Shown here piece after piece: positions 33,315-54,231 of a stretch of DNA of 64,000 nucleotides. The DNA comes from Candidatus Methylomirabilota bacterium (GTDB lineage: Bacteria > Methylomirabilota > Methylomirabilia > Rokubacteriales > CSP1-6). Both the position numbers and the translations under genes were made by a program. The stretch spans positions 32,001-96,000 of the forward strand of contig JBKPAK010000008.1 in assembly GCA_046726415.1 (NCBI GenBank). Reading direction: 5' to 3'. Every line of letters begins with the position of its first letter. Position 1 is the first letter of the stretch. Under the pieces are notes generated by a model. It had not been told where the DNA came from. It saw only the letters and a program-made list of their open reading frames with translations, and searched no databases.

Positions 33315-34385
33315 TCACGCTCGGGCGCCGAGTCGATTCTCGACGAAGCGCTTGGCGTCGAACTCTTCGGCGACGCGGTTGTCCTTCTCCAGCAGGGCCT
33401 CGGCATCGACCTCCGCGAAGTCCAGCACCCCCATGTCGGCATAGGCCTTGCGCACGCGAGAGCCCCACAGCCCGATGTCCTTCACGGTGGGGACGATTCG
33501 GGTGAAGAGCCGCGTCCGGAACTGGCGCATCTGGTCAGACTGGAGCGTGACCCGGACGCATTCCTCGACGGGCAGGCCGAGGTTGTCCCACACCTCGCGC
33601 TGGTTGAAGCGGTCGCGCATATGATGGCAGGCGTCGACGACGAATTCCTCGCGCTCGTCGCGCTCGGCTTCGGTGAGCCGGGGGTAGTAGTCGCGCAGGG
33701 CCAGCCGGCCGAAGGCCACGTGGCGCGCCTCATCCTGCATCACGTAGGCGTTGACGGCCGCGGCCAGCGGGTTCTTGGCCGTGTCCCGAATGCGCTGGAA
33801 GGCGGCCAGGGCCAGCCCCTCGATGAGAATCTGCATGCCGAGGTAGGTCATGTCCCAGCGCCGGTCGGTGAGGGTGTTTTCCAGCAGCGCCTTGAGGCCG
33901 GGCGTGATCGGGTAGACGATCTCGAACTTCTGGTGGAGCAAGCGCGCGTAGGCTTCAACGTGCCGGGCCTCGTCCATCACCTGGGTGGCGGCGTAGAACT
34001 TCGACTCGGTGTCCGGCACGGTCTGGACGATCTTTGCCGTCGCGATGAGGGCGCCCTGCTCGCCGTGCATGAACTGGGAGATGGACTGGGCCTGTAGATG
34101 GTGGCGGACGCAGCCCCTTTCCTTGTCGGTGAGCCGGTTCCAGATATCCGAGCCGTGGATCTGCACGGTCCGGTCGTCCAGCCCCATCGGGTTCTCGGGG
34201 TCCAGAGCGACCGACCAGTCGATGCGCTCGGCCGCGTCCCACTGTTGCTTCTTTCCCTTGTCGTACAGGCTCAGCAGCTTGTCACGGCCGTCCTCGTATT
34301 CCCAGGAGAAGCGGGTGTCGGTCGTGCCCTCCACCGTCCACCCTGTCTGCTCGACGGGAACCGTATAGCGAAATCTCGTGGCCAT
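33315..34385 (-). CDS. Ferritin-like diiron protein (AurF-like)
   Basis: [34 protein letters not shown] (paired ExxH motifs). Confidence 0.85.
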
Positions 34386-34518
34386 CCAACACCTCCCGGG
34401 CCCACCGTACCAGAACTGGGGGTCCCATCGTCGAACTTCCCCCGGAGTGGTGGCCGTTGGGCGGCCGTCAGAGCTTCTCGCCGTCAGGCCTGGCCACGCC
34501 GGCTATACTGAGCTGACC

Positions 34519-35865
34519 GTGAGCTACAACGCATGGTTCCAGTGCATCAACGGCTGCCCGGGCCAGTACAGCCTCCTGGAGGTCATCTATCGCTGCCCCA
34601 CCTGCGGGGACCTGCTGGAGGTTCAGCACGATACCGACGCCCTGCGGAGCCGCTCGGCCGCCGCGTGGATGCAGCTCTTCGATGACCGCTACCGCCGCAA
34701 CACCTATCCCTACGGCTCCGGCGTGTGGGGCAAGAAGGAGTGGGTGGTGCCCTTCATCGACAACGAGAGCATCGTGTCGATGTACGAGGGCAACTCGAAT
34801 CTGCTCTGGGCCGACCGATACGGCAAGCAGCTCCACGTCGAGGACCTGTGGGTCAAACAGTGCGGCAACTCACACACCGGCTCGTTCAAGGATCTCGGCA
34901 TGACCGTGCTGGTGTCGATCGTCAAGCAGATGAAGGGGGACGGCGTCCCCATCGACGCGGTGGCCTGCGCGTCGACCGGCGACACCTCGGCCGCGCTCGG
35001 GGCGTACTGCGCGGCGGCGGCGATCCCGGCGGTGGTGCTGCTGCCGCGAAACAAGATCTCGATCGCCCAGCTCGTCCAGCCGCTGGCCAACGGCGCCCTG
35101 GTACTCTCGCTCGACACCGACTTCGATGGATGCATGGCGGTGGTGCAGAAGATCACCCGGGACCGTCGCATCTACCTGGCCAACTCCATGAACAGCCTGC
35201 GCATCGAGGGTCAGAAGACGGTGGCCATCGAGATCGTGCAGCAGTTCGACTGGGAAGTGCCCGATTGGATCGTCATCCCTGGGGGCAATCTCGGCAACGT
35301 GCACGCCCTCGGCCAGGGGTTCACCATGATGCGCGAGCTCGGGCTCATCCAGCGCCTCCCGCGCATCTGTCTGGCTCAAGCCGAGCGGGCCAACCCGCTC
35401 TACCGCTCCTATCTCGAGGAGTTCAAGCGCTTCGAACCCATCGAGGCCCAGTCCACCCTGGCCACGGCGGTTCAGATCGGCAATCCGGTGTCAGTCAAGC
35501 GCGCCATCCGCACGCTGCAGCGCTTCAACGGCGTGGTGGAGCAGGCGACGGAGCAGGAGCTGGCCGACGAGGCGGCCCGCGCCGACCGCACGGGGATGTT
35601 CAACTGCCCGCACACTGGGGTGGCGCTGGCCGCCCTGCGCAAACTCGTCGAACGCAAGATCGTCCGTTCGCACGAGCGGGTGGTGGTGATCTCGACCGCG
35701 AACGGGCTCAAGTTCGCCGATCAGAAGGCGGCCTATCACATGGGTGCCCTCGAGGGAATCCGGCCGTCACAGCGCAACACGCCAGTGGAACTGCCCCCCG
35801 ATCCGACGCAGGTAACCCGGGCCATCGCCCGCCACGTCGAGAAGGCGCGCCTGCTCGTGTCATGA
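34519..35865 (+). CDS. thrC: Threonine synthase, plant-type
   Basis: [13 protein letters not shown] lysine, [25 protein letters not shown]-terminal [13 protein letters not shown]. Confidence 0.93.
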
Positions 35866-37088
35866 CGTCCCGGCGATCGAGCCCAGGCGACCCGGTGACC
35901 CCCCCGCACAAGCCGCAGGGGCCGAGCACCATGGCCGTTCACGCAGGCGAGCCGCGGCCCAAGGCCGGTCACTCGCTGGCCACACCCATCATGCAGACGG
36001 CCACCTTTACGTTCGCGAATTCTCAGGAAATCCGGGATCACTTCGACGGGAAGATCGACCGCGTCGAGTACGGGCGCTACGGCAATCCCACCCAGCGCAT
36101 CGCCGAGGCCAAGCTCGCGGCCCTGGAGGGGGCGGAGGACTGCCTGCTTTTCTCGAGCGGCATGGCCGCGGTGACGACGGCCCTCTTCGCCATGCTCTCG
36201 CGGGGCACGCACGTGGTGGTCACCGACGACAGCTATCGCCGCACGCGCCAGTTCCTCAACCAGACGCTGCACCGCTACGGCATCGAGGTCTCGACCGTGC
36301 CCCCCGGGGACTACGAGGCGCTCGAGGACGCCATTCGCCCGACCACTCGGGTGCTGGTGAGCGAGTCGCCGACCAACCCGTACAACCGCATCGTCGACCT
36401 CGAGCGCTTCGCCGCCGTCGGCCGGCGCCACCGGGTGAAGACCCTCATCGATGCGACCTTCGCGACGCCGTACAACCAGCGGCCCCTCGAGTGGGGGGTG
36501 GACGTGGTCATCCATTCGGCCACCAAGTACCTCGGGGGACACAACGATCTTCTCGCTGGCGCGGCGCTCGGCTCCCGCGACGTCGTGGATGCTCTTCGAG
36601 GGCTCCAGGGCGTCACCGGCGCGGTCGTCGATCCGTTCGTGGCCTACCTACTCGTGCGAGGGCTCAAGACTTTCGCGCTCCGCATTGAGCGGCAGAACGC
36701 CAACGCGCAGGCCCTGGCCGAGTTCCTGGCCGGGCACCCGCGGGTGGTCGCGGTCCACTACGCTGGGCTGCCGAGCCACCCCGAACACGACATCGCCCGC
36801 CGGCAAATGCGCGGCTTCGGCGGCGTGGTATCGTTCGAGGTGCGCGGTGACCTCGATGCGGCCTCGCGCGTGGTCGACGCCTGCGGCATTCCCTACATCG
36901 CCGTCTCGCTGGGCGGCGTCGAAAGCCTCATCGAGCAGCCGGCCCTCATGAGCTTCTACGAACTGACCACGGAGGAGCGGCTGCAGATCGGCATCAAGGA
37001 CACGCTCATCCGATATTCGGTCGGCATCGAAGACATCGACGACCTGATCGCGGACCTCGGACAGGCGCTGGACCGCGCGGACGCCTGA
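35862..37088 (+). CDS. metB: Cystathionine gamma-synthase, plant-like (Cys/Met PLP family)
   Basis: [62 protein letters not shown] overlap with thrC. Confidence 0.85.
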
Positions 37089-37102
37089 CGGGGGGCGGTT
37101 AC

Positions 37103-37729
37103 GTGAGCGAGCGCGCGCCAATGAACCCACTTCGCGAGGAGACGGTCGCCCCTCGGGCGCACTTCGCCGCTGAGCTGCGCGCCGGTCAGGTGCTTCGTAT
37201 TGTCGACATCGAGGGCCAGCAGGTGGCTGACCTCGTCTGCTTCGCCCTGGCCGATCTGGCCGAGCGGCTCTCGATCGTCAACACGATCAGTCTCAACCGG
37301 CAGGTCTATCCGCGCGTGGGCACGGTCCTGTGGTCCGAGCAGGCCCGGCCGATGCTGACCATCATCGCCGACACGTGTGGCGTCCACGATTTCCTGGCCG
37401 GTGCCTGCAGCCGATTCATGAACGAACGCCGCTACGGCGTGAAGGACACCCGCAACTGCCGCGATAACCTGGCCGAGGCCGTCAAGCCGTGGGGCATCGC
37501 GGGCAAGGATGTCCCGTTCAATATGAACGTCTTCATGAATTGCCCGATTGGTCCCGATGGGACCTGGTCCATCCAGGTGCCCCGGAGCAAGGCCGGCGAC
37601 GCCTTCGACCTCCGCGCCGAGATGGACGTCCTGGTGGCCTTCTCCAACTGCCCTCAGATCTACAACGCCTGCAACGCGTTCAGACTCAAGCCGCTGAAGG
37701 CACTCATCTACCAGTACAGCCCTTCCTGA
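37103..37729 (+). CDS. DUF1989 / urea carboxylase-associated family protein
   Basis: GQVLRIVDIEGQQVADL, HDFLAGAC, NCRDNL, LRAEMDVLVAFSNCPQ. Confidence 0.88.
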   Translation: MSERAPMNPLREETVAPRAHFAAELRAGQVLRIVDIEGQQVADLVCFALADLAERLSIVNTISLNRQVYPRVGTVLWSEQARPMLTIIADTCGVHDFLAGACSRFMNERRYGVKDTRNCRDNLAEAVKPWGIAGKDVPFNMNVFMNCPIGPDGTWSIQVPRSKAGDAFDLRAEMDVLVAFSNCPQIYNACNAFRLKPLKALIYQYSPS

Positions 37730-38398: not shown

Positions 38399-39838
38399 TC
38401 ACAGCCTTGCGTCGAGCCGGCGTTGACGGTGGAGCGCGTCGCGATACCGCGCGTGGCGCGGGGGATCGGGCTCGATGGTCGTGCCCAAGGGAAGGTGCGC
38501 CGCGCGCAGGTCGGGCAGGCGACCCAGTGACTGAAGCGCCAGCAGCGCGCACCCGCGGCTGGTGGCCTCTTCCTCAGCGGATAACGCGAGGGGACGCCCG
38601 AGCGCATCAGCAATCATCTGCGCCCACGTCCGAGAGCGCAGCGCGCCACCTGAACCGATGATGGCGTGGCTCGGCCCCACGAGCGGGGCGAGGAGGCCAT
38701 AGACGAGGGCGAGGCGAAGGGCCACCGCCTCCAGCCCGGCCCGGACGAGTTCGATTGCCGTCGTGTCCAGCGAGAGCCCGGCAATCGCCGCCCTCCGTTC
38801 GCTTCGCCAACCCGGCGACCGCTCTCCGGCCAGGAAGGGAAGGACGGTGAGGCCGTGCGCGTCGGCCTCTTCGCGCCCCAGAGCCGCCTCCAGCTCGTCA
38901 TCGCCAGGAAGACGGAGCAGGCTCCGCAGCCACGCGTACACGTTGCCACCCTCAGAGGTGGCCCCGCCGACGAGGGCACGCATCCGATCGATGCGATAGC
39001 TCCAAAGGCCGCGGGGAGGGGCCAGGAAGTCCTCGGCCACGAAGCGCAGGGCTGCCGATGTCCCCAGGTTGAGCGCGATGCGGGTCCGGTCGATGCAGTC
39101 GGATCCAATGGTGCCGGTGGCCCCGTCGCCGATGGCGGGAAACCACATCGCGCGCGCCAGGGCGGGCCAGCGGCGCGCCCACGGCGATCGGAGACCCCGC
39201 CGCCCGGCATCGCGGTCGCGCAGGGCGAAGAGCTGACCCTCGTCGATCCCCGCGGCGGCCAGGGTCTCGGGGTCCCAGGTGAGCGCACGCTGGTCGAAAA
39301 GGCCGGTGGCTGAGGCCATCGAGATGCTGGTGGTTGCCTCTCCGAGAAAGGTCAGCTCCAGGTATTCGCCGATGGACCCCCAACGGGTCACGCGGCGAAT
39401 CGCCACTGGGCGGTCATGGGCCAGCCAGTGGAGCTTGGCGGGCCAGTAGCACGCATGAATGTGGCAGCCCGTACGCGCGTGGACCGGATCGTCCCCCAAG
39501 GCGTCGCGCAGCAGGGCTGCATCGCGAGCGGCCCGACTGTCAGCCCAGGTGAAGATGGGCGTGGCCGGTCGCCCTGCCGTGTCAAACCCCAGCAGGCCGT
39601 GCCAGAAAGACGTCACGCCGACAGCCAGGATCTCCGGTCGGTGGGGGCCAGCCAGCGCTCCATCGACACAGGCGATCACGGCGCGAAGCAGGCGGTCGGC
39701 ATCGTGCTCCACGCCACCGTCCGCCGTCGTGGTGGGGTGGTAGCGCTCCTGATGGGCATGACCCTCGATAGGCACCCCCCGTTCGCCGTAGATCCGGGCG
39801 CGTGCCGAGGAGGTACCGACGTCGAGGGTGAGGATCAC
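38399..39838 (-). CDS. gntK: FGGY family carbohydrate kinase (gluconokinase-like)
   Basis: LDVGTSSARA, TWADSRA, SMASATGL, PFLAGERSPGW, EATSRG. Confidence 0.85.
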   Translation of the reverse strand: MILTLDVGTSSARARIYGERGVPIEGHAHQERYHPTTTADGGVEHDADRLLRAVIACVDGALAGPHRPEILAVGVTSFWHGLLGFDTAGRPATPIFTWADSRAARDAALLRDALGDDPVHARTGCHIHACYWPAKLHWLAHDRPVAIRRVTRWGSIGEYLELTFLGEATTSISMASATGLFDQRALTWDPETLAAAGIDEGQLFALRDRDAGRRGLRSPWARRWPALARAMWFPAIGDGATGTIGSDCIDRTRIALNLGTSAALRFVAEDFLAPPRGLWSYRIDRMRALVGGATSEGGNVYAWLRSLLRLPGDDELEAALGREEADAHGLTVLPFLAGERSPGWRSERRAAIAGLSLDTTAIELVRAGLEAVALRLALVYGLLAPLVGPSHAIIGSGGALRSRTWAQMIADALGRPLALSAEEEATSRGCALLALQSLGRLPDLRAAHLPLGTTIEPDPPRHARYRDALHRQRRLDARL

Positions 39839-39950
39839 CGGGCCATCGTCGGGGAAGTTGCGCGTTAGGGCAAGAGTCGACCCATTCGGGGTGTGAGGTA
39901 AGATGGCGGCCAGAGCAGAGGCTCCGCCGGCCGCTGGACAAGGAGAAATC

Positions 39951-40517
39951 ATGGCACGCATCCGAGTGATGAGCCCCGTCGGAGAGGTCACGCAGGAGCG
40001 AATCGCCGTTCCGCCCGTGCCGGAGGACCTGGCGGGCCGGGTCGTCGGCTTCATCGACAACACCAAGCACAACTTCGACCGGTTGGCCGAGGGGCTAGGG
40101 ACGCTCCTGCAGCAGCGCTACGGCGTCCGCGCCGTCGTCCATCGGCGCAAAGCCAATGCGTCCACGCCAGCCGGGCCCGAGCTGATCGCGGAGCTGTCGA
40201 AGGAGTGCGATGTCGTCTTTGCCGGCTCAGGCGACTGAGGGTCGTGCACGTCGTGGAGTCTCCACGACGCCATCGAGGTCGCGAGGATGGGTACGCCCGC
40301 CGGTCTGATCGCAACCACGGCGTTCCAGGGGCTTGCCGTGAGCGAGCTGACCTCGCTGGGCGTGGCGGGACTGCCGCTCCTCGTCGTTCAACATCCACTC
40401 GGCGGGGAGCGCCCCGAATCTGTCGCTCGCCGAGCACAGCAGGCGCTCGAGCAGCTGGCCAGTCTCATCGGGGGACGTCGTGAGCATCGCGGCGGGGGGC
40501 CCGGCGACGGGCGCTGA
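39951..40517 (+). CDS. UGSC-family probable selenoprotein, 188 aa, Sec96 (readthrough of TGA 40236-40238)
   Basis: ORFs 39903-40238 and 40287-40517 are in one frame separated by a single TGA, giving GSGD-U-GSCTSWSLHD; AAGGAG SD before ATG 39951; SECIS-like hairpin follows. Confidence 0.9.
40249..40269 (+). promoter_or_regulatory. Putative bacterial SECIS element
   Basis: CGTCGTGGA-GTC-TCCACGACG, a perfect 9-bp stem; loop G,T at positions 23,24 from the T of TGA. Confidence 0.8.
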
Positions 40518-41535
40518 GAGCGAGCGGTTCATCGAGGTCGACGACGATCCGCAGGCGCTCCTCGCCGCCTTCTGCGAGCGTCGCTGGTGCGATGGACTTC
40601 CCATCGTGGCACCCACCGAGGCGCGCGTCGCCGCCATGCTGGCCGGCCGCACTCCCGATCGCGCGCTGGGAGCCGTGCCTCCGCTCTGGAGGCAGGCCAC
40701 CCTCGAGAAGCTCGCCGTCAACGCGGTCATGGCCGGCTGCGAGCCGGCCTATTTCCCGATCATCGTGGCCGCCGTCGAGGCGATGCTCGATCCCACGTTC
40801 AACCTCTACGGGGTGCAGGCCACGACCCATCCAGTCGCTCCGCTCGTTGTCGTACACGGCGAGTACGGGCGCTCAGTCGGTGTTCACGCCGGAAGTGGCT
40901 GCCTCGGCCCGGGCTTTCGCGCCAACGCCACCCTCGGTCGCGCCATCCGGCTCATCCTGCTGAACATCGGCGGCGCCTGGCCGGGACGGCACGACATGGC
41001 CACGCAGGGCAGCCCGGCCAAGTTTTCCTACTGCGTCGGCGAGAACGTCGAGGCCTCGCCGTGGGGCCCGCTCCACGTCGATGACGCCGTCACCGTGTTC
41101 GGCGGGGAGCCGCCGCACAACGTGAACGACCACGTGTCCACCACCGCGTCCGGCATTCTCACCACGGTGGCGGACACCGCGGTGTCCCTGGGGTCGAACG
41201 TCGGGTGGTTCATGGCCCAGAGTCAGCTCATGCTGATCCTCGGCCCCGAGCACGCGGCGACCATCGCCAGCGATGGTCTCTCTCGGCGCGACGTCCAGCA
41301 GTTCATCTTCGAGCACGCGCGGCTGCCCCTGCGCGTGCTCAAGCTCAGCGGCATGTGGGGGATGCACGATTGGCCGGCGTGGATGCTGGCCACGCGAGAC
41401 GACGACGCCCTCATGCCGCGGGTGCTGTCCGCCGACGAGGTGTTCGTGGTGGTCGCCGGAGGGCCGGGCAAGCACTCAGCCGTGGTGCCGAACTGCACCT
41501 TCAGCCGCGCGGTCACGCGCCCTATCCACCCCTGA
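40480..41535 (+). CDS. Conserved hypothetical protein, partner of the UGSC protein
   Basis: 351-aa ORF with genome-typical codon use and enzyme-like motifs (DGLPIVAPT, ATLEKLAVNAVMAGC, GVQATT, RANATLGRA, VAGGPGKHS); overlaps the UGSC gene by 38 nt. Confidence 0.85.
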   Translation: MSIAAGGPATGAESERFIEVDDDPQALLAAFCERRWCDGLPIVAPTEARVAAMLAGRTPDRALGAVPPLWRQATLEKLAVNAVMAGCEPAYFPIIVAAVEAMLDPTFNLYGVQATTHPVAPLVVVHGEYGRSVGVHAGSGCLGPGFRANATLGRAIRLILLNIGGAWPGRHDMATQGSPAKFSYCVGENVEASPWGPLHVDDAVTVFGGEPPHNVNDHVSTTASGILTTVADTAVSLGSNVGWFMAQSQLMLILGPEHAATIASDGLSRRDVQQFIFEHARLPLRVLKLSGMWGMHDWPAWMLATRDDDALMPRVLSADEVFVVVAGGPGKHSAVVPNCTFSRAVTRPIHP

Positions 41536-41565
41536 CGTCCACTCCATTGACATGGAGGCTCGGCC

Positions 41566-42468
41566 ATGAAGATCGCGTTCTTGGGCACCGGCACCATGGG
41601 TCGGCCGATGCTGGCCAATCTCGTGAAGAAGGGTCACGCGGTGCTCGCCCACGATATCGTTCCCGAGGCGCTCAGCGCCGCGGTGAAGCTCGGAGCCACC
41701 GCGGCGGGCTCGGCCGCGGAGGCCACCGTCCAGGCCGAGGTTGTCATCGCCATGCTGCCTTCGTCTTCGCACGTGGTCACCGCTTTCCTCGGCGACGGCG
41801 GCGTGCTCGCGGCGGTGCGCTCCGGTCAGCTCTGCATCGACATGTCGACCATCGATCCCAGCACCTCACGGATGGTGGCCGAGAAGGTCCGCGAGCGCGG
41901 TGCTCGCTTCATCGACGCGCCCGTCTCGGGTGGGGTCCCGCGCGCCGAGGATGGCACGCTGGCCATCATGGTGGGCGGCGACGTGAAAGATGTGGAGGGC
42001 GCGCGGCCCATCCTCGGCTGCATGGGGGCGAGCATCTTCCACGTCGGCCCGGTGGGCAGCGGTGAGGTGGCCAAGCTGTGTAACAACCTGATCGCCGGCG
42101 TGGCCGCGGTGGCGGTGAGCGAGGCGTTTCGCATCGCGGAGGGCTTCGGTGTCGATGCCAAGATCCTCACGGACGTCATCGCAAAATCGTCGGGGAACAC
42201 CTGGGTGATGGAGGCGATGCATCCGGTGCCGGGTCTCGTGGCGAAATCCGCATCGACTCGCGACTACGCCCCCGGCTTCATGACCGACCTCATGGCCAAG
42301 GATCTCGGCCTCGCCGTCAACGCCGCTCGCGAGCTGCGCGTGCCCGTCATGGTCGCTCCCGCCGCGCAACAAGCTCTGCGGTTGGCGTCCTCTCACGGCT
42401 GGGGTCGGAAGGACTTCACGTCGATCTACCAGTTCCTGAAGCCCTCGAGCGACCAGGCGCCTGTTTGA
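41566..42468 (+). CDS. mmsB: 3-hydroxyisobutyrate dehydrogenase
   Basis: FLGTGTMG, DAPVSGG, AKLCNN, HPVPG...DYAPGFMTDLMAKDLGLA. Confidence 0.85.
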   Translation: MKIAFLGTGTMGRPMLANLVKKGHAVLAHDIVPEALSAAVKLGATAAGSAAEATVQAEVVIAMLPSSSHVVTAFLGDGGVLAAVRSGQLCIDMSTIDPSTSRMVAEKVRERGARFIDAPVSGGVPRAEDGTLAIMVGGDVKDVEGARPILGCMGASIFHVGPVGSGEVAKLCNNLIAGVAAVAVSEAFRIAEGFGVDAKILTDVIAKSSGNTWVMEAMHPVPGLVAKSASTRDYAPGFMTDLMAKDLGLAVNAARELRVPVMVAPAAQQALRLASSHGWGRKDFTSIYQFLKPSSDQAPV

Positions 42469-42469
42469 G

Positions 42470-42636
42470 ATGGGGGGCCTCGAGCGGGCCCCCCAAACCC
42501 CCCGGCGCTCGTCGCGCCCCGGCGAAGCCGGGGCGCTCCTCCAAACCCCTGGGCGCCCGGCGCGCCCCGGCGAAGCCGGGACGCTCCTCGAAGTCAGCGC
42601 TCGGCGCGCCCCGGCGAAGCCGGGGCGCTCCTCGAA
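42470..42636. repeat. REP-like cluster: one GGGGGGCC...GGCCCCCC hairpin plus three copies of GCGCCCCGGC-GAA-GCCGGGGCGC-TCCTC
   Basis: Copies at 42514-42536, 42562-42584 (one mismatch) and 42606-42628. Confidence 0.9.
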
Positions 42637-42775
42637 GCGCGCGGCGGTTGGCGGGTGTGACATCGAGCCTCGAGCTGCCTCGAAACAGCCGGTGAGTTCC
42701 CGCGAGCTGATGACGTGTCGCGATCTTCTCCGGCGTGATTTCGTCCGTGGGCGCGCGGGAGGCTTGAGACCTGCG

Positions 42776-42784
42776 TGCTATACT
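42776..42784 (+). promoter_or_regulatory. Extended -10 promoter (TGnTATACT) for the GYD-AOR operon
   Basis: TGCTATACT about 45 nt upstream of AAGGAGG/GTG 42830. Confidence 0.5.
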
Positions 42785-42829
42785 GGCGAGCGTTTCGCCA
42801 GGTGAGTAGCGTTCCAAGGAGGCTTTGCG

Positions 42830-43153
42830 GTGAGTCTGTACGTGATGCTGAGTACTCTCTCGGAGTCGGGGCGCAAGGTTCTCCGGGAGCGCCCCGGCTG
42901 GATCCGCAAGGTCAATGCGGACGTCGAGCGCATGGGCGCCCGCGTGATCTCGCAGTACGCCGTGCTCGGCCCTTACGACTTCGTGACCGTCGTGGAGGCC
43001 CCCGACAACCCCACGATCTCTCGGATCTCCGTCGAGTTGGGGGCGCGCGGATCGGTACAGATGATGACCATGGCCGCCATTCCCCTCGACGAGTTCATCG
43101 GCCGCCTCGAGGGGCGAGGCAGTGCGGCCGGCAACGCTCGAAAGAAACGGTGA
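42830..43153 (+). CDS. GYD domain protein
   Basis: YAVLGPYDFVTVVEAPD, ELGARGSV..TM.A; AAGGAGG SD. Confidence 0.85.
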   Translation: MSLYVMLSTLSESGRKVLRERPGWIRKVNADVERMGARVISQYAVLGPYDFVTVVEAPDNPTISRISVELGARGSVQMMTMAAIPLDEFIGRLEGRGSAAGNARKKR

Positions 43154-43155
43154 GC

Positions 43156-43653
43156 ATGACGACCCTGGCTGTGCCTGCCATGCGAGTCCTGAAGATCATC
43201 CCCGAGCGGTGCACGGGCTGTCTGCGCTGCGAGCTAGCCTGCTCCTACATGCAGACTGGAGAGTACCAGCCGGCCAAGTCGGTGATCAGGGTGTCGCCCT
43301 TCGAGGGGCATACGTCCTACGCGCCGTACACGTGCACGCAGTGCGCTGAGGGCTGGTGCATGACGGCGTGTCCGGTGGGGGCCATCACCATCAACGCGGC
43401 CGGCGCCAAGGACGTGGTCGACGACATCTGCGTGGGCTGCAAGCTCTGCACGATCGCCTGCCCCTACGGGACGATGTTCTACGACACCGACACTCGTAAG
43501 GCCTTCAAGTGCAACCTGTGCAACGGCGCTCCCGCGTGCGCCGAGGCCTGTCCCACGGCGGCCATTCTCTACGAGGAGGTGGCGAACCAGGACTGGCTGG
43601 GGGATTTCGCGCGAGAGCGGTTCGAGCATGCGCTGACCCTGGAGGCCCGGTGA
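43156..43653 (+). CDS. Multi-[4Fe-4S] ferredoxin-like subunit (AorA-like)
   Basis: CTGCLRCELAC, CTQC....CMTACP, CVGCKLCTIACP, CNLC..PACAEACP. Confidence 0.92.
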   Translation: MTTLAVPAMRVLKIIPERCTGCLRCELACSYMQTGEYQPAKSVIRVSPFEGHTSYAPYTCTQCAEGWCMTACPVGAITINAAGAKDVVDDICVGCKLCTIACPYGTMFYDTDTRKAFKCNLCNGAPACAEACPTAAILYEEVANQDWLGDFARERFEHALTLEAR

Positions 43654-44975
43654 TGGTCCGCCATCTGATCATCGGGGGCGGCACCGTCGGCATGAACGCC
43701 ATGCGCACCATTCGGGAAGAGGAACCCGAGCGCTCGGACATCACCCTGGTCAGCGCCGAGAAGCCGTACTCGCGCATGGTGCTGCCGTACTATCTCGATC
43801 GCTCCATCGCGGAATCGCACGTGTACACGGCCACCGCGAAGGTCCTGGCCGGCTGGGGTGTCAAGACGCACGTCGGGCGCCGGGCCAGCGCTCTCGACAC
43901 CACGGCCAACGTCTGCACCCTCGACGACGGCACCCGGATCGAGTACGACGACTGCCTGGTCGCCACCGGATCCTCGGCGGTGCGAGCGCCGGTGCCGGGC
44001 GCGGATGGTCGGGGTGTGCACTCCTTCTGGACCCTCGACCAGGCCAAGGGGGTGTTGGCCGAGATCGGGCCGGGGAGCCACGTGGTGATGGTGGGGGCTG
44101 GCTTCATCTCGTTCACCATCCTGAATTCGATCCTCGCCCTCGGCGCCACGCTCACCATCGTCGAGATCGCGCCGCGGATCCTGCCGCGCATGGTGGATGC
44201 GGCAGGCGCGGAGCTGGTGGAGACGTGGCTGATCAAGAACGGGGTCAGCGTGCGGGCGGGCGCCGTGCTCAAAGCCATCGAGGACGCCAAGGCCAAAAAG
44301 CGGCTCCGCTTCGAGCAGGGTCCCGATCTTCTGGCCGACGTCGTGGTCATGGCCACCGGCATCAGGACCAATCTCGAGTGGCTGAAGGGATCCGGCGTCG
44401 CGATCGAGCAGGGCGTCGTCGTCGACGACCATCTCCGATCCAGTGTTCCGAATGTCTATGCCGGGGGCGATGTGGCCGAGGGGCGTGACCTCGTGACCGG
44501 CCGTCCCGCCGTGCACGCCATCGAGCCAACGGCGCAGGAGCACGGGCGCGTGGCCGGCGCCAACATGGCGGGCCAGAGCATCGCGTACAGGGGCAGCTTG
44601 CTCATGAATATCGTGGAAGTCTGTCATCTGGACATCGCCTCGTTCGGCGCCTGGGATGACGGCGAGGCCGAGGTGTTGACTGGGCTTCGATCGGACCGTC
44701 CGGCGTATCGCAAGCTCGTGTGGCGCGGCGACCGCTTGATCGGCGCCATCATCCTCGGGCCCTCGAGCGACATCTGGACCTCCAACGACATCGGAATGCT
44801 GAAGGGACTCGTGCAATCGGGATCCCCGATCGGGCGGTTCAAGGCTCACCTGGCTCGGAATCCCTTCGACATCAAGCCGGCGTACATTGCCTCGAGGACC
44901 ACTGCCATGCTGCTCCCCGAAACCGTGCTCGGGCGGCCGGCGAAGGCGCCCGCAGACACTCCGGTGGCCGTATGA
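43653..44975 (+). CDS. FAD/NAD-dependent oxidoreductase subunit (AorC/NirB-like)
   Basis: IIGGGTVG, PYSRMVL, VATGS, VGAGFI, VYAGGDVAE. Confidence 0.88.
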   Translation: MVRHLIIGGGTVGMNAMRTIREEEPERSDITLVSAEKPYSRMVLPYYLDRSIAESHVYTATAKVLAGWGVKTHVGRRASALDTTANVCTLDDGTRIEYDDCLVATGSSAVRAPVPGADGRGVHSFWTLDQAKGVLAEIGPGSHVVMVGAGFISFTILNSILALGATLTIVEIAPRILPRMVDAAGAELVETWLIKNGVSVRAGAVLKAIEDAKAKKRLRFEQGPDLLADVVVMATGIRTNLEWLKGSGVAIEQGVVVDDHLRSSVPNVYAGGDVAEGRDLVTGRPAVHAIEPTAQEHGRVAGANMAGQSIAYRGSLLMNIVEVCHLDIASFGAWDDGEAEVLTGLRSDRPAYRKLVWRGDRLIGAIILGPSSDIWTSNDIGMLKGLVQSGSPIGRFKAHLARNPFDIKPAYIASRTTAMLLPETVLGRPAKAPADTPVAV

Positions 44976-46945
44976 GTCCCACGACACGGACCGCGCGCGC
45001 GACGGCGAAGAAGCCCACGAGAACCAAGGCGGCGCCAGGCAAGGCGGCGAGGCCGCGGCCTGTCCTGCCCGGCGGCTACGCCGGGAAGATTCTCCGAGTC
45101 GACCTGGCATCCGGGCGCTGCTGGGCGGAGCCGTGGGGCCCGGCCGAGATGCGGGAACAGATCGGGGGGATCGGCCTGGGCGCCATGATCCTGTACCGCG
45201 AGACGGCCGCCAAGAATGGCAAGGGCAACGTGAGCTGGGACCATCCCGACAACCGATTGGTGCTCGCCACCGGCCCGCTGGCCGGGCTGCCCGTGTGGGG
45301 CACAGGCGGGCTCACCGTGGTCACCATCGGCGCCGGCACCAATGGGCCGACGTCGACGCAGGCCAACGGCTTCTTCGGCACGAACATCAAGTATTGCGGG
45401 TACGACGCCATCGTCTTCCAGGGTCAATCCGAGAAGTGGGTGTACCTCTACGTCCACGACGACGTGATCGAGCTGCGCGACGCGAGCGACCTGGTCGGGC
45501 TCGATACCTGGGAGACCCAGTACCGCCTCTCTCGGCTGCACGGGCTCTCGGGTCACCAGCTCTCGGTGTACTCGATCGGGCCGGCCGGCGAGAACCTCGC
45601 CCGCTTCGCGGCCATCCAGGGGGACTTCGGCCATGTCGCCTCCAAGAATGGCGTGGGCGCGGTCATGGGCAAGAAGAAGGTCAAGGCGGTCGCCATCGCC
45701 AAGGGCACCAAAAGCCTCCGCGCGGCCGATCCCAAGGGGGTCATCCAAGCGGCTGACGACATCGCCCACGACCTCCAGACGGACCCCTCGGCGCGCTCGC
45801 TGTACGAATACGGCACGCTGCCCGGCGTCTCGAACCTCTCCAAGATGGGCGCGCTGCCCGTCAAGAACTACACGACGAATCTCACCCTCGGGGTCGACAT
45901 GAGCGAGTGGGACGCCGCCAAGCTCCGCGAGGGCTTCGACCACCGCGGGCACCAGTGCAACGCCTGCGGCATGCACCACTGCCACATGTCGGTGATCCGG
46001 AGCGGCGAGAACAAGGGCAAGATCGTCGACGAGCCGGAGTACGAGGGTTGGTCGGGCGCGGGCTGGACCATCGGGCTCACCGATCGCGATTCGATCGCGT
46101 GGCTCAACACCGAACTGGACAAGGCCTGCCTGGACGTCAACGAGTTCGGGTGGGTGTGCGGCTGGGTGATGGAGTGCCAGGAGAAGGGCTACATCACCAA
46201 GGAGCAGCTGGGCTTCGAGCTGCCCTGGGGCGATGTCAAGGGCGCGGCCCGCTTGATCCAGATGATCTCGAAACGCGAGGGGCTCGGCGATCTCCTCGCC
46301 GAGGGTGTCAAGCGCGCCGCGGAGTCGCTCGGCAGTCCCGCCAAGGACTGTGCGATCTACATCGAGCGGGGGGCCGCGCCACGCGGCCACGACCACCGCG
46401 CCCGGTGGGAGGAGATGCTCGATACCTGCACCTCTGGCACCGCCACCATGGAAACCGGCAATCCCGTCCATCCCACGGAGCTCGGCCAGCCCGCTCGCAT
46501 CAATCCCTTCGACGGCGAGCAGGTGGCGAAGTACGTGGCGAATCTGCGCGGGCGGCGGAACTTCGAGGACTCGCTGGGGATCTGCATCTTCACCATCCGC
46601 ACGCGGCTCGAGAACGTCTGCCGAGCCCTCAGCGCCGCCACCGGGTGGAACTACACCGTCGAAGAAGCCATCCGCTTCGGCCGGCGCACCGCCGCCATCA
46701 ACCGCACGGTGCTCCTGCGCTGCGGAATCACCCCGGCATCCGAGTACCCCTCGGCACGCTACGGCTCCACGCCCGTCGACGGGCCCGCCCAGGGGCAAGC
46801 CATCCGCGATCAGTGGGAGAAAATGCTGGACACCTGGTACGAGGTCGTTGGCTATGATCGCAAGACCGGCAAGCCACTGCCGGCGACCCTGAAGGATCTC
46901 GGGCTCGACTGGCTCGTCGCCGAGCATTGGGGGAAGAGGGCCTAA
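44972..46945 (+). CDS. Aldehyde:ferredoxin oxidoreductase family tungstoenzyme
   Basis: GYAGKILRVDL, SIGPAGEN, GVGAVMGKK, CNACGMHHC, EPEYE, GDLLAEGV, DSLGIC. Confidence 0.92.
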   Translation: MSPTTRTARATAKKPTRTKAAPGKAARPRPVLPGGYAGKILRVDLASGRCWAEPWGPAEMREQIGGIGLGAMILYRETAAKNGKGNVSWDHPDNRLVLATGPLAGLPVWGTGGLTVVTIGAGTNGPTSTQANGFFGTNIKYCGYDAIVFQGQSEKWVYLYVHDDVIELRDASDLVGLDTWETQYRLSRLHGLSGHQLSVYSIGPAGENLARFAAIQGDFGHVASKNGVGAVMGKKKVKAVAIAKGTKSLRAADPKGVIQAADDIAHDLQTDPSARSLYEYGTLPGVSNLSKMGALPVKNYTTNLTLGVDMSEWDAAKLREGFDHRGHQCNACGMHHCHMSVIRSGENKGKIVDEPEYEGWSGAGWTIGLTDRDSIAWLNTELDKACLDVNEFGWVCGWVMECQEKGYITKEQLGFELPWGDVKGAARLIQMISKREGLGDLLAEGVKRAAESLGSPAKDCAIYIERGAAPRGHDHRARWEEMLDTCTSGTATMETGNPVHPTELGQPARINPFDGEQVAKYVANLRGRRNFEDSLGICIFTIRTRLENVCRALSAATGWNYTVEEAIRFGRRTAAINRTVLLRCGITPASEYPSARYGSTPVDGPAQGQAIRDQWEKMLDTWYEVVGYDRKTGKPLPATLKDLGLDWLVAEHWGKRA

Positions 46946-52974: not shown

Positions 52975-54231
52975 TCACGTTCTCGAGGTCGGGGCGGCGC
53001 CGGCGCGAGCCGCGGCTTCGATCCGGTCGATGTTCACCAGCGGTACGAGAAGCCACGCCAGCGCGGTCGTCCCCGCCGAGATGAAGATGAGGGGGGTATA
53101 GCCCACCCAGTCGTAGAGGCGGCCGCCGACGTTCTGGGAGAGCTGCGTGCCGCCGTTGAACACCGACATCAGGAGCGCGAAGAAGGTGCCCTCCACCCGC
53201 CGGGGACAAGCCTTGGCGGCCAGGTCGAGGAAGGCGAGCTGGGTGATCATGGCGGCCACCCCGGTCGCGAAGTCGATGATGACCGCCGACGTCGGTCCAC
53301 GGTAGCCGAGGTAGGCCAGCATGCTCAGGACGCCGGCGCCGATCGTCCACACGATCACCCGCCGGAGGGGATAGCGGCGCGACAGGGGCGCGTAGATCAG
53401 CGCGCCCAGCATCGCCCCGACCGAGGTGAGAGAGGCGAGGACGCCGATGAACTCCTGGCTGAATCCCAGGACGTCGGTCTGATAGTAAAGGAAGGCCGGA
53501 CCGAACGACGGGCTGAAGTTGAAGAAGAAGATGAAGCCGGCCACCACCCAGACCTCGCGTTCGGTGGCGGCCTCCCGGATGGCCCGGGCGGTGACGCGCA
53601 GCGCCTCCCAGTCGGACCGCACCCGAGGCTCGCGGATGAAAAGCAGGGCCATGAGCAGCGAGACGAGCGGGAAGGCGCCGGCCAGCGCGAAGGCGATGTC
53701 GAGCCGGCGGGCTCCCGCCAGGTAGCCGCCGCCGATGCCGACCGCGATGGAGGCGGCGTAAATCGCCGCCCACTGCACGGCCTGGAATGCGCCGGTGAGC
53801 CCGAGGGGCTTCCCGTTCTCGACCATGAGGGCATCGGTGAGCACATCGGTGAAGGCGAGGCCGAGGCCCATGAGGGTGAAGAGAATCGCCGTAGGCCAGT
53901 AGGGATATCCCGCGAGCAGCGCGAGGGTGAAGCCCGTGCCCGGGGCCAACGCGGTGGCGAGCACGAAGTAGCTCTTGCGGCGCCGGCCGAACAGCGGCAC
54001 GAAATCCGACAGCAGGCCGTAGACGGGCTTCATCAGCCACGGGATGGTCACGAGCAAGAAGAAATCGGCCACGTGGGCGGCTGAGAGCCCCCGGTCCTTC
54101 AACAGGACGGTGAGCGCTTGGTTGGGCAGGTACCACAAGCCCTGGGCGAAGTAGACGACGCCGAAGAAGACTGCGAGGCGGCGGGCGGCGGGAGTGGTGA
54201 AGGGATTGAGCCGGTCGAGGGTCGCGGGCAC
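52975..54231 (-). CDS. MFS transporter, folate-biopterin (BT1) family
   Basis: PWLMKPVYGLLSDFVPLFGRRRKSY, DVLTDALMVE, ACPRRVEGTFFALLMS. Confidence 0.85.
   Translation of the reverse strand: MPATLDRLNPFTTPAARRLAVFFGVVYFAQGLWYLPNQALTVLLKDRGLSAAHVADFFLLVTIPWLMKPVYGLLSDFVPLFGRRRKSYFVLATALAPGTGFTLALLAGYPYWPTAILFTLMGLGLAFTDVLTDALMVENGKPLGLTGAFQAVQWAAIYAASIAVGIGGGYLAGARRLDIAFALAGAFPLVSLLMALLFIREPRVRSDWEALRVTARAIREAATEREVWVVAGFIFFFNFSPSFGPAFLYYQTDVLGFSQEFIGVLASLTSVGAMLGALIYAPLSRRYPLRRVIVWTIGAGVLSMLAYLGYRGPTSAVIIDFATGVAAMITQLAFLDLAAKACPRRVEGTFFALLMSVFNGGTQLSQNVGGRLYDWVGYTPLIFISAGTTALAWLLVPLVNIDRIEAAARAGAAPTSRT

What the first reader, a model, noticed from the sequence alone, without database searches (positions are those of the whole stretch)
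39951..41535. Hidden UGSC selenoprotein with a glycine-reductase-B-like Sec segment, paired with an uncharacterised 351-aa protein: candidate novel Sec-dependent enzyme system
Seen: two ORF-track fragments join across one TGA into a 188-aa protein containing D-U-G-S-C-T-S-W-S-L-H-D-A-I-E-V-A-R-M-G-T-P...QHPLG. A SECIS-like hairpin follows, and the gene overlaps a 351-aa Cys/Gly-motif ORF by 38 nt. Established: 'UGSC-containing' selenoproteins are known from metagenomes, with no function known to me. Inference: the segment aligns without gaps to the GrdB/GrdF/GrdH active site as I recall it (U-G-T-C-T-R-C-G-A-T-M-V-K-E-I-E-R-A-G-I-P...PHPLG). U0, G1, C3, T4, E13, R16, G18, P20 and the later HPLG all coincide. 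This suggests a minimal GrdB/PrdB-like selenolate nucleophile subunit whose substrate-binding partner is the 351-aa protein rather than a pyruvoyl GrdE/PrdA. That would be a Stickland-reductase-like C-N or C-S cleavage chemistry outside clostridia.
Basis: partly seen in the sequence, partly recalled or inferred. Interest (0 to 1): 0.85.

Follow-up and report, generated by a model that had tools for sequence, protein, structure and literature searches.

The report
UGSC selenoprotein with its obligate partner
This is a real selenocysteine-encoding gene of the already catalogued but functionally unknown UGSC family, sitting next to the uncharacterised protein it always accompanies, and the pair probably forms one redox enzyme whose substrate is still unknown.

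Summary
ORF 39951-40517 reads through one TGA (40236-40238) into a 188-aa protein with D-U-G-S-C. It matches Pfam PF24696 "UGSC family" (160.7 bits). All 81 related loci keep TGA at that column, and cultured relatives carry Cys there. The eight codons that encode a hairpin 10 nt after the TGA show almost no synonymous change.

The 351-aa neighbour (40480-41535) matches no Pfam or NCBIfam model. It accompanies UGSC in 81 of 81 Rokubacteria-type loci: fused in frame in 34, with two more fused but frame-broken. It also does so in 18 of 19 distant bacterial and archaeal contexts. Fusions occur in both orders. A 2008 paper already printed this fusion as "UGSC/Unknown_1".

The glycine-reductase-B reading is only partly supported. 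No UGSC sequence hits the GrdB/PrdB model (0 of 64), and the partner is not a GrdE/PrdA relative (0 of 60). By eye, published PrdB-like reads share the same motif skeleton around Sec. Thioredoxin reductase genes lie beside the pair in 5 of 17 annotated distant contexts and are fused to the partner once, but in 0 of 81 Rokubacteria-type loci.

Best reading: a two-part thiol/selenol reductase of unknown substrate.

The parts
39940..39945 (+). Shine-Dalgarno-like AAGGAG, 5 nt before the ATG of the UGSC gene
   Evidence: Read directly. It favours the start at 39951 over the ATG at 39903 listed. Homologues also begin M-A/S/T-R-I-R-V.
39951..40517 (+). UGSC-family selenoprotein gene: 188 codons, Sec at codon 96, stop TGA 40515-40517
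   Evidence: translation. Pfam PF24696, 160.7 bits, cut-off 25. NCBIfam NF041046, 121.1 bits, cut-off 125; coding-type substitution pattern on both sides of the TGA.
40236..40238 (+). In-frame TGA read as selenocysteine (U96) in D-U-G-S-C; C99 is the paired cysteine
   Evidence: TGA in 81 of 81 aligned loci. Cys at the same column in 36 standalone Cys forms (A6) and in 5 cultured organisms. Sec forms also occur in Paracoccus and Acidovorax.
40249..40269 (+). SECIS-like hairpin: 9 bp here, 8-bp conserved core 40250-40268, loop GUC, starting 10 nt after the UGA
   Evidence: -14.6 kcal/mol. Near-absence of synonymous change in its codons. The same stem occurs in Acidovorax (loop GUG) and in Paracoccus, where a G-C to G-U change keeps the pair. 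No Rfam hit.
40480..41535 (+). Partner gene, 351 aa, GTG start, overlapping the UGSC gene by 38 nt. Uncharacterised family (the 'Unknown_1' of the 2008 paper) with near-invariant D38, C87 (in M-A-G-C), N149, R154, E188 and H258
   Evidence: conservation in 60 sequences; no Pfam or NCBIfam family; no solved-structure relative; 5029 clusters at E<=0.001; linkage and fusions.
41566..42468 (+). 3-hydroxyisobutyrate dehydrogenase gene, 31 nt downstream, possibly co-transcribed. Context only, not shown to belong to the system
   Evidence: TIGR01692, 320.1 bits, cut-off 291.6; no terminator-like site on the + strand in 39600-42900; a homologue lies within the held flank in 58 of 80 loci; in the one relative checked (L003) unrelated genes (glycosyltransferases) lie between it and the partner.

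Best explanation
The two genes encode the two parts of one thiol/selenol redox enzyme. The small UGSC protein carries a redox-active U96-x-x-C99 pair. The hairpin in its own coding sequence recodes the UGA as selenocysteine. The 351-aa partner is the larger, probably substrate-binding and catalytic part, with a near-invariant cysteine (C87) and conserved D38, N149, R154, E188 and H258.

Inferred mechanism: C87 of the partner reacts with the substrate and ends up oxidised or covalently loaded. The selenolate of U96 attacks and resolves that state, forming a selenenylsulfide that passes to C99. The oxidised UGSC is then re-reduced by the thioredoxin system with NAD(P)H.

Shown: the gene is a conserved Sec gene of the UGSC family, and the two proteins are an obligate pair.
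Inferred: the order of the relay, the role of C87, and the electron donor.
Unknown: the substrate. Neighbouring genes in other taxa point to small organic acids.
For: Sec gene. Cys at the same column in Cys forms.

Obligate pairing:
- The partner is present in 81 of 81 Rokubacteria-type loci: 41 adjacent or overlapping, 34 fused in one frame, 2 fused with a frame break, 4 lying 0.2-3 kb away.
- A UGSC domain is adjacent or fused in 17 of 18 plasmid/chromid contexts from Actinomycetota, Alpha-, Beta- and Gammaproteobacteria, Negativicutes and haloarchaea, plus Paracoccus versutus.
- Among the 150 best cluster representatives of the partner family, 21 carry a full UGSC domain in front, 28 carry the post-Sec half (cut at the TGA by gene callers), and 4 have the reverse order, partner then UGSC, ending exactly before the TGA.
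- Haloarchaea have partner-UGSC-partner triads.

Redox character:
- C-G-S-C is invariant in 51 of 51 standalone UGSC sequences, with Sec read as C.
- C87 of the partner is present in at least 90% of 60 sequences and in 23 of 25 fusions.

Thioredoxin link:
- trxB-trxA-partner-UGSC in Arthrobacter; partner-UGSC-trxB in Roseovarius; trxB upstream in Variovorax SRS16.
- TrxB-like genes in Haloterrigena and V. boronicumulans: TIGR01292 at 231 and 159.5 bits. Together this is 5 of 17 annotated contexts.
- One natural partner-TrxB fusion, P0213: TIGR01292 at 331.4 bits, cut-off 343.45.
- UGSC-NifU-domain fusions in Actinomycetota.

Sec machinery: selB lies about 3.3 kb from the Sec-form pair in two Paracoccus species.
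Against: - No TrxB-like gene lies within the held flanks of any of the 81 Rokubacteria-type loci, the window included. The electron donor for this organism is therefore inferred from distant relatives only.
- In 13 of 25 natural fusions the UGSC-like domain has no Cys at the Sec column. Five of those have a Cys two residues earlier and the others none. A redox-active residue there is common but not universal.
- Gene neighbourhoods are heterogeneous: CoA transferases and lyases, SDRs, TRAP/TTT/MFS transporters, aconitase X, DUF6282. They name no substrate.
- No structure, complex model or experiment supports the relay.
- Sec machinery could not be looked for in this genome. The window and 60 flanks hold no tRNA-Sec. 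No SelB homologue lies in the window or the 80 Rokubacteria-type loci.
Confidence: 0.55

Rival explanations
1. One reading: UGSC is a minimal GrdB/PrdB-type subunit. Its selenolate attacks a carbon of a substrate held by the partner, giving Stickland-type reductive C-N or C-S cleavage. The partner replaces the pyruvoyl subunit GrdE/PrdA.
For: - GrdB/F/H carry UxxCxxC and PrdB carries UxxC. UGSC has UxxC, and the Arthrobacter and Roseovarius Cys forms have CxxCxxC.
- I compared the first ten GOS reads of supplement part 22 that extend at least 50 residues past U. The authors assign these to pfam07355. By eye, 9 of 10 have C at +3, 9 of 10 have G at +18, and 10 of 10 have x-(L/M/F)-G at +45 to +47, with P at +45 in 6. 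UGSC has C+3, G+18 and P-L-G at +53 to +55. Some of these reads even begin U-G-x-C with E at +13 and +15.
- PrdB has Sec at 151 of about 26 kDa, a similar distance from the C-terminus as in UGSC.
- trxB-trxA beside the pair in Arthrobacter recalls grd operons (own knowledge).
- Three fused homologues lie near proline/hydroxyproline-type genes: aconitase X with DUF126 in Sporomusa and Vibrio, and ornithine cyclodeaminase-family and DHDPS-family genes in V. boronicumulans.
Against: - 0 of 39 (E<=1) and 0 of 25 (E<=10) UGSC-family sequences hit Pfam GRDB.
- A profile search of solved structures finds nothing.
- The partner has no GrdE/PrdA or any other family hit (0 of 60). It keeps G-C, not the T-C cleavage site reported for PrdA.
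- No GrdA, GrdC/D or PrdH-like genes were seen in the window.
- The by-eye match needs an 8-residue shift and was not scored.
- 13 of 25 fusions lack Cys or Sec at the column. That is hard to reconcile with an indispensable nucleophile.
Confidence: 0.17
2. The partner is a non-redox enzyme, for example a Cys/His-dependent isomerase, hydratase or hydrolase of organic-acid catabolism. UGSC only keeps its catalytic cysteine reduced or regulates it by reversible oxidation.
For: - Conserved C87, H258, D38/E188 and R154 in the partner.
- Catabolic neighbourhoods with CoA transferase, CoA-ester lyase, SDR and carboxylate transporters.
- 88 of the 150 partner representatives show no UGSC domain on the same chain, and Haladaptatus has a partner with no UGSC within 6 kb.
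- Many fused UGSC-like domains have lost the Cys.
Against: - A dedicated selenoprotein kept at 81 of 81 loci, fusions in both orders, and dedicated trxB genes are a heavy investment for mere maintenance.
- The 88 'alone' cases include fragments and split genes whose UGSC gene is separate, as in the window.
Confidence: 0.15
3. The cysteines and selenocysteine of UGSC, with C87 of the partner, bind a metal or an iron-sulfur cluster. The pair is then a metalloenzyme or cluster carrier, not a dithiol/selenol relay.
For: - UGSC fused to a NifU-like domain in Actinomycetota. In one search, 9 of 25 scanned proteins match PF01106: 5 at E below 1e-5 and 4 only weakly (E 5e-4 to 9e-3, all below the 27-bit cut-off).
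- CxxCxxC(C) variants in Arthrobacter and Roseovarius.
Against: - Only two residues (C/U96 and C99) are invariant in UGSC.
- TrxB/TrxA neighbours and the TrxB fusion point to disulfide exchange.
- No Fe-S or metal-binding family is hit.
Confidence: 0.08
4. The TGA is a plain stop. The region holds a 95-aa gene, a remnant and the 351-aa gene, that is, a pseudogene or an annotation artefact.
For: Gene callers end the protein at the TGA in most database entries. The window holds no Rfam hit and no tRNA-Sec. One metagenomic homologue has GGA (Gly) at the column (P0003).
Against: - TGA at 81 of 81 loci with Cys homologues at the same column.
- Purifying selection continues in the same frame after the TGA, and H-P-L-G-G lies exactly 51 codons later in 81 of 81.
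- Frozen hairpin codons.
- The same TGA and hairpin occur in Alpha- and Betaproteobacteria.
Confidence: 0.02

Closest known systems
UGSC family (seleno)protein (Pfam PF24696; NCBIfam NF041046; 'UGSC-containing protein' of Zhang and Gladyshev)
   Same: Full-length HMM match, U-G-S-C motif, Sec/Cys alternation, SECIS-like hairpin. The literature lists it as a predicted selenoprotein of unknown function. It was first noted in Hyphomonas neptunium and in metagenomes, and is among the most abundant selenoproteins in ocean samples (passages read).
   Different: Nothing in kind. This is a typical member of a large Rokubacteria/Methylomirabilota clade. The NCBIfam score is 121.1, just under the curated 125.
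'UGSC/Unknown_1' fusion proteins of the Global Ocean Sampling data (PLoS Genet 2008, PMC2398784)
   Same: Reads in that paper's sequence file continue from U-G-S-C-T-P... into W-T-D-G-L-P-I-V-P-P-T and N-G-V-M-A-G-C-R-P-E-Y-M-P. By eye these are the two strongest motifs of the window's partner (W-C-D-G-L-P-I-V-A-P-T and N-A-V-M-A-G-C-E-P-A-Y-F-P). Unknown_1 is therefore this partner family.
   Different: Here the two are separate, overlapping genes. The paper gives no function. [quoted passage not shown] Its Figure S1 is a PDF that I could not read.
Selenoprotein B of glycine/sarcosine/betaine reductase (GrdB/F/H) and PrdB of D-proline reductase (Pfam PF07355)
   Same: Sec in UxxC(xxC) directly after a hydrophobic strand. 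By eye, the same order of motifs follows it. It works with a second, larger substrate-binding subunit. Thioredoxin-system genes are nearby (own knowledge for grd operons; for UGSC).
   Different: No HMM-level similarity. UGSC lacks the 150-350 residues that precede Sec in PrdB/GrdB-like proteins. The partner is unrelated at HMM level to the pyruvoyl proenzymes GrdE/PrdA. No GrdA, GrdC or GrdD is present. Hosts are aerobes, soil Rokubacteria and haloarchaea.
Thioredoxin-dependent thiol reductases with a catalytic and a resolving Cys/Sec, such as methionine sulfoxide reductases, ArsC and peroxiredoxins (own knowledge)
   Same: The logic proposed here: a catalytic Cys on one part, a resolving Sec/Cys-x-x-Cys on another, and recycling by thioredoxin reductase.
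   Different: No sequence relation to any of them. The resolving pair sits on a separate, dedicated protein.

Membership tests
UGSC family (PF24696 / NF041046) | Full-length match to the family model above its cut-off | tested here: met
   Pfam: 160.7 bits against cut-off 25, residues 6-173 on profile positions 2-170 of 172. NCBIfam equivalog: 121.1 bits against cut-off 125, just under.
UGSC family (PF24696 / NF041046) | U/C-G-S-C motif at the conserved column | tested here: met
   U96-G-S-C99. C, G, S and C are invariant in 51 of 51 aligned members, with Sec read as C.
Bacterial selenoprotein gene | Conserved in-frame TGA with Cys-containing homologues at the same column and coding conservation downstream | tested here: met
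   (81/81 TGA).
Bacterial selenoprotein gene | SECIS stem-loop shortly after the UGA, with G/U in a small apical loop (criterion recalled from the bSECISearch and fdhF literature) | tested here: met
   A hairpin of 8-9 bp starts 10-11 nt after the UGA, with loop GUC or GUG. Its codons are frozen at synonymous sites. A G-C to G-U change in Paracoccus keeps the pair. There is no compensatory double change, because the stem hardly varies. No Rfam model matched.
Bacterial selenoprotein gene | selA, selB, selC and selD in the same genome | not testable with these tools
   Only 64 kb is given, and none is seen in it. No tRNA-Sec in 60 related flanks. No SelB homologue in the window or the 80 Rokubacteria-type loci. 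selB lies 3.3 kb from the Sec-form pair in two Paracoccus species.
GrdB/PrdB selenoprotein B (PF07355) | Match to the GRDB family model | tested here: not met
   0 of 39 at E<=1. 0 of 25 natural UGSC proteins at E<=10. HMMER's filters may hide very weak matches.
GrdB/PrdB selenoprotein B (PF07355) | Sec in UxxC (PrdB) or UxxCxxC (GrdB/F/H) | tested here: inconclusive
   UxxC is present. The third Cys is absent in the window (U-G-S-C-T-S-W) but present in the Arthrobacter and Roseovarius Cys forms.
GrdB/PrdB selenoprotein B (PF07355) | Same fold around the Sec loop (profile-profile or structure comparison) | not testable with these tools
No GrdB/PrdB sequence could be handed to a tool. Only a by-eye comparison with published reads was possible.
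Glycine/proline reductase system | Pyruvoyl proenzyme partner (GrdE/PrdA), cleaved at a Cys | tested here: not met
   The partner and 59 relatives hit no Pfam or NCBIfam family. No relative among solved structures.
Glycine/proline reductase system | GrdA, GrdC/GrdD (or PrdC, PrdH) encoded nearby | tested here: not met
   Pfam scan of 49 ORFs of the window shows none. None is annotated in the 17 annotated distant contexts.
Thioredoxin-fold oxidoreductase (suggested for UGSC in PMC2398784) | Thioredoxin-like fold with the CxxC at a helix start | not testable with these tools
   No thioredoxin-type family is hit by sequence. No model could be made.

The most novel reading that the evidence does not exclude
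UGSC plus its partner is a new class of thioredoxin-driven, selenol/thiol-dependent reductase found in soil Rokubacteria, proteobacteria, actinomycetes and haloarchaea. Its Sec-bearing module is a distant, minimal relative of the GrdB/PrdB module. Its catalytic subunit is a new, non-pyruvoyl fold. It carries out a reductive cleavage of a small organic or amino acid outside anaerobic Stickland fermenters.
Probability: 0.2. Interest if true: 0.85.

Novelty: new member of a known kind. Interest (0 to 1): 0.5.

Why it matters
UGSC is one of the most abundant predicted selenoproteins in environmental data: 255 genes in the GOS data and 8.2% of marine selenoprotein genes in a later survey. The 2026 review passages I read still group it among selenoproteins whose functions remain largely uncharacterised.

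This analysis shows three things:
- UGSC never works alone. It belongs to a two-part enzyme whose larger part has thousands of members and no family model.
- Distant relatives tie the pair to thioredoxin reductase.
- Cultured, tractable hosts carry it: Paracoccus versutus has the Sec form with selB nearby, and Arthrobacter has a trxB-trxA-partner-UGSC operon.

Together these turn an orphan family into a directly testable one. They also flag a systematic annotation error: the gene is split or truncated at the TGA in most database entries.

Tried and rejected
- **Structure prediction.** I asked for the partner (A3) five times, each after the stated wait. No model and no Foldseek search exist.
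- **Complex prediction.** A second, with a natural Cys-form fusion cut into its two domains (A7), was answered 'not available'. There is no verdict of any kind.
- **Protein Atlas for UGSC.** Natural homologues were not held or the machine was busy. For the partner, the Atlas returned only unnamed clusters.
- **Getting a real GrdB/PrdB sequence into a tool.** tblastn of a Cys-form UGSC against plasmids at E<=10 found only 7 UGSC genes. The first 100 kb of the 131-kb Sporomusa termitida plasmid carry no grd genes; a further 13 kb had been seen. The third homologue search listed only UGSC members among its best 120 of 590. Sequences printed in a paper's supplement were read by eye only and not handed to tools.
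- **Solved structures.** Profile searches with UGSC and with the partner gave only chance-level hits: ArsA at E 0.0049 and DnaB at E 0.16.
- **Rfam.** No match in the window.
- **Single-sequence folding of the hairpin region.** Not significant.
- **Window neighbours as functional clues.** The FGGY kinase (62 of 80 loci) and HIBADH (58 of 80) are syntenic within the phylum. Outside it no FGGY kinase or HIBADH gene is annotated in the 17 annotated contexts. In L003, unrelated genes lie between the partner and the HIBADH gene, and in L037 between UGSC and the partner. I rejected them as evidence of function.
- **Internal repeat in the partner, or partner-UGSC similarity.** hhalign probabilities were below 1%.
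- **Literature.** 9 papers hold 'UGSC', and I read the passages in 7 of them (and the supplement of PMC2398784). None gives a function. 5 papers hold 'UGSC', 'fusion' and 'thioredoxin reductase' together, all among those 9. I read the UGSC passages of 3 of them, and those do not mention thioredoxin reductase. I did not open PMC7539508, PMC5330540 or PMC7435645.
Full report
**What is in the window**

The window has 68% G+C. Two same-frame ORF fragments, 39903..40238 and 40287..40517, are separated by one TGA at 40236-40238. Read from the ATG at 39951, which has AAGGAG 5 nt upstream, the frame gives 188 residues. Selenocysteine sits at position 96 in ...F-A-G-S-G-D-U-G-S-C-T-S-W-S-L-H-D..., and H-P-L-G-G follows 51 codons later. 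The frame ends at TGA 40515-40517. A 351-aa ORF starts at GTG 40480, overlaps by 38 nt and ends at 41535.

**Is it a selenoprotein gene?**

The read-through protein matches Pfam PF24696 'UGSC family' over its whole length: 160.7 bits, E = 4.8e-47. It also matches NCBIfam NF041046 'UGSC family (seleno)protein' at 121.1 bits, just under the curated 125.

A scan of one genome per species found 225 loci that encode a relative. The best 80 were kept, and nearly all come from Rokubacteria/Methylomirabilota genomes assembled from metagenomes. All 80, plus the window, have TGA at the same column; the motif is U-G-S-C in 80 and U-G-A-C in one.

Substitutions downstream of the TGA fall mainly on third codon positions (0.21/0.12/0.45), as they do upstream (0.19/0.16/0.40). 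Translation therefore continues in frame. Database proteins mostly stop at ...G-S-[AG]-D, which shows that gene callers truncate the gene.

Cys forms exist at exactly this column. C-G-S-C is invariant in 36 standalone Cys forms and in five cultured bacteria and archaea. Sec forms also occur outside the phylum, in two Paracoccus species and in Acidovorax sp. T1. In Paracoccus, selB lies about 3.3 kb away.

**The recoding signal**

A 9-bp hairpin (40249-40269, loop GUC) starts 10 nt after the UGA. On its own it is unremarkable. The fold of the region has z = -1.2, and RNAfold prefers a different structure by 0.4 kcal/mol.

The comparative signal is strong. The eight codons that encode the hairpin (C-T-S-W-S-L-H-D) are almost invariant at synonymous sites. 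One example is the serine codon AGT, present in 81 of 81. Flanking codons vary freely. Third-position divergence is 0.015 inside the hairpin against 0.45 outside it.

Acidovorax and Paracoccus keep the same stem. Both have a changed loop base, and Paracoccus has a G-C to G-U change that preserves pairing. The 45 nt after the codon fold to -17.5 to -25.9 kcal/mol in six Sec forms and to -8.9 to -17.5 in twelve Cys forms, so the ranges touch. No Rfam family matched. No tRNA-Sec or SelB gene lies in the window or the fetched flanks. The Sec machinery of this genome therefore stays unchecked.

**The partner**

The 351-aa protein hits nothing in Pfam or NCBIfam. Neither do 59 diverse relatives, even at E<=10. 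A profile of the family finds no solved structure. The Atlas shows only unnamed clusters.

The family is nevertheless very large. It has at least 5885 clusters at 90% identity, and 5029 clusters at 50% identity with E<=0.001. Near-invariant residues include D38 (in W-x-D-G-L-P-x-x-P-P-T), C87 (in M-A-G-C), N149 and R154 (in R-A-N-A-T-I-G-R-A), E188 and H258. It has no internal repeat and no similarity to UGSC.

**The two belong together**

In the 81 Rokubacteria-type loci the partner always follows UGSC:

| Arrangement | Loci |
|---|---|
| Adjacent or overlapping genes (the window is one) | 41 |
| Fused in one reading frame | 34 |
| Fused, with a frame break | 2 |
| 0.2-3 kb away | 4 |

I examined 19 contexts on plasmids and chromids of distant organisms. 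They came from Arthrobacter, Embleya, Roseovarius, two Paracoccus, Neorhizobium, two Variovorax, Acidovorax, Vibrio, Sporomusa and eight haloarchaea. A UGSC domain is adjacent or fused in 18 of them. Haladaptatus is the exception.

Gene order varies: UGSC then partner, partner then UGSC, or partner-UGSC-partner in four haloarchaea. The 150 best partner representatives divide as follows:

| Architecture | Count |
|---|---|
| No UGSC domain on the same chain (alone or fragment) | 88 |
| Only the post-Sec half of UGSC in front (cut at the TGA by gene callers) | 28 |
| Full UGSC domain in front | 21 |
| Reverse fusion (partner then UGSC), ending just before the TGA | 4 |
| Tandem partner domains | 3 |
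| Long unassigned N-terminal region | 3 |
| Long C-terminal extension, one of them a thioredoxin reductase (P0213) | 2 |
| N-terminally incomplete UGSC domain in front (P0315) | 1 |

Fusion in both orders is strong evidence that the two parts act as one protein. The fusion itself is not new. The 2008 GOS paper reports a 'UGSC/Unknown_1' fusion. Reads in its sequence file run from U-G-S-C into W-T-D-G-L-P-I-V-P-P-T and N-G-V-M-A-G-C-R-P, which are the partner's motifs.

**What it may do**

The literature passages I read give no function. One paper suggests a thioredoxin-like fold.

The most consistent clue is the thioredoxin system:
- trxB-trxA-partner-UGSC in Arthrobacter.
- trxB next to the pair in Roseovarius and in Variovorax SRS16.
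- TrxB-like genes in Haloterrigena and in V. boronicumulans.
- A partner-TrxB fusion protein (P0213).

Together this is 5 of 17 annotated contexts plus one fusion. UGSC is also found fused to a NifU-like CxxC domain.

With the invariant U/C-x-x-C and the conserved C87, this suggests a relay: NAD(P)H to TrxB, then thioredoxin, then UGSC, then the partner, then the substrate. Other neighbours are carboxylate transporters, LysR-type regulators, family III CoA transferases, CoA-ester lyases, SDRs, DUF6282 and aconitase X. They suggest small organic acids but do not agree on one pathway.

Several facts count against this reading or limit it:
- None of the 81 Rokubacteria-type loci has a TrxB-like gene in its flanks.
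- 13 of 25 fusions lack a Cys at the Sec column.
- The window's own neighbours are a divergent FGGY kinase and a 3-hydroxyisobutyrate dehydrogenase 31 nt downstream. They are syntenic within the phylum only.

**The glycine-reductase idea**

HMM tests are negative. No UGSC-family sequence hits PF07355 (0 of 39 at E<=1, 0 of 25 at E<=10). The partner is no GrdE/PrdA relative. No GrdA, GrdC or GrdD genes are nearby.

Papers confirm that GrdB/F/H carry UxxCxxC and PrdB carries UxxC. PrdB has Sec at residue 151 of a 25.7-kDa chain. Its partner PrdA is cleaved at T420/C421 with the help of PrdH.

I could compare real sequences only by eye, using the GOS reads that the authors assign to pfam07355. 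Among the first ten reads of supplement part 22 that extend at least 50 residues past U:
- 9 have C at +3.
- 9 have G at +18.
- All 10 have x-(L/M/F)-G at +45 to +47.
- Some begin U-G-x-C with E at +13 and +15.

UGSC has G+1, C+3, E+13, G+18 and P+20, with P-L-G at +53 to +55. The motif order is the same, but it needs an 8-residue shift and I did not score it. The Cys forms of Arthrobacter and Roseovarius even have CxxCxxC. A distant relation of the Sec-bearing strand-helix-strand unit is therefore plausible but unproven. The rest of the Stickland model is unsupported.

**What could not be done**

The Atlas could not be used for UGSC. Figure S1 of the 2008 paper is a PDF and could not be read.

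**Verdict**

This is a genuine, typical member of a known but functionally orphan selenoprotein family, together with its obligate and still un-modelled partner. The linkage prediction is confirmed, though it was already in print in fused form. The GrdB-like mechanism remains a lead.

Noticed in passing
window 40245-40268: The hairpin is encoded by the protein motif T-S-W-S-L-H-D, so the RNA signal and the residues right after U-G-S-C constrain each other. Some Cys-form genes with T-S-W-x-x-H-D still fold into a weaker version of the stem (L089 -17.5, L090 -14.4 kcal/mol).
   Followed up: partly
protein P0003 (metagenomic homologue, 69% identical): This full-length homologue has Gly (D-G-G-S-C) at the Sec column, one base away from TGA. 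It may be a sequencing error or a natural loss of Sec. It is a single sequence on one contig.
   Followed up: no
L071, L080 (labelled Verrucomicrobiia), L076 (Nitrosocosmicus, an archaeon), L056 (Binatia), L024 (Acidoferrum), L068 (Deferrimicrobiaceae): These contigs carry loci 64-74% identical to the window's UGSC, with the same TGA and hairpin. The four of them included in the tree (L068, L071, L076, L078-type neighbours) nest inside the Rokubacteria clade. Binning errors in the metagenome-assembled genomes seem more likely than gene transfer.
   Followed up: partly
L092 5356-7917 (Acidovorax sp. T1 plasmid p2-T1); L093 and L101 5414-7071 (Paracoccus ferrooxidans, P. versutus): Sec-form genes in cultured proteobacteria are unannotated or split into two 'hypothetical proteins' in the public records. 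In a quick tree all 17 Sec forms fall on one side of a branch (SH-aLRT 88, with long branches). A single origin of the Sec form is possible but not shown.
   Followed up: partly
L087, L090, L098, L099 (haloarchaeal plasmids): Three-gene modules, partner - UGSC-like - partner, with two diverged partner paralogues. Single chains with two tandem partner domains also exist (P0240, P0307, P0312). This suggests a heteromeric or pseudo-dimeric catalytic part.
   Followed up: partly
L081 7069-7884 (Arthrobacter) and proteins P0335, P0345, P0348, P0355, P0376: UGSC fused to a C-terminal NifU-like domain in Actinomycetota. This is an extra CxxC module that might act as the built-in electron donor or bind a cluster.
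   Followed up: no
L081 3740-4528 and L089 2868-3335: A phosphosulfolactate synthase gene lies near the pair in both an actinomycete and a haloarchaeon. In Vibrio an enolase paralogue follows the fused gene (L086 7062-8339). This may hint at sulfonate or phosphoenolpyruvate-related chemistry.
   Followed up: no
window 42830-46945: Cluster of a GYD-domain protein, a 4Fe-4S ferredoxin, a flavoprotein and a tungsten/molybdenum aldehyde:ferredoxin oxidoreductase. The flavoprotein's best match is phenylglyoxylate dehydrogenase subunit epsilon (239 bits, below cut-off). Each member has a homologue in 26-35 of the 80 related loci.
   Followed up: partly
window 13551-18367: ImuB-like (IMS family) gene followed by an error-prone DnaE2-type polymerase III alpha subunit: a mutagenesis cassette.
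   Followed up: no
window 19602-22043 and 54194-56302: Two molybdopterin oxidoreductases with N-terminal 4Fe-4S domains. Neither contains a coding-like in-frame TGA, so they are not Sec forms.
   Followed up: partly
window 34378-37729: A PLP-dependent enzyme (PALP), a Cys/Met-metabolism PLP enzyme and a DUF1989 protein in a row. The DUF1989 protein resembles urea-amidolyase-associated proteins (189 bits, below cut-off). Of the 80 related loci only L001 has homologues of the two PLP enzymes, and none has a DUF1989 homologue.
   Followed up: no
window 61123-63900 (- strand): MlaC, MlaD and MlaE genes of a phospholipid-transport (Mla) system, which points to a diderm envelope.
   Followed up: no
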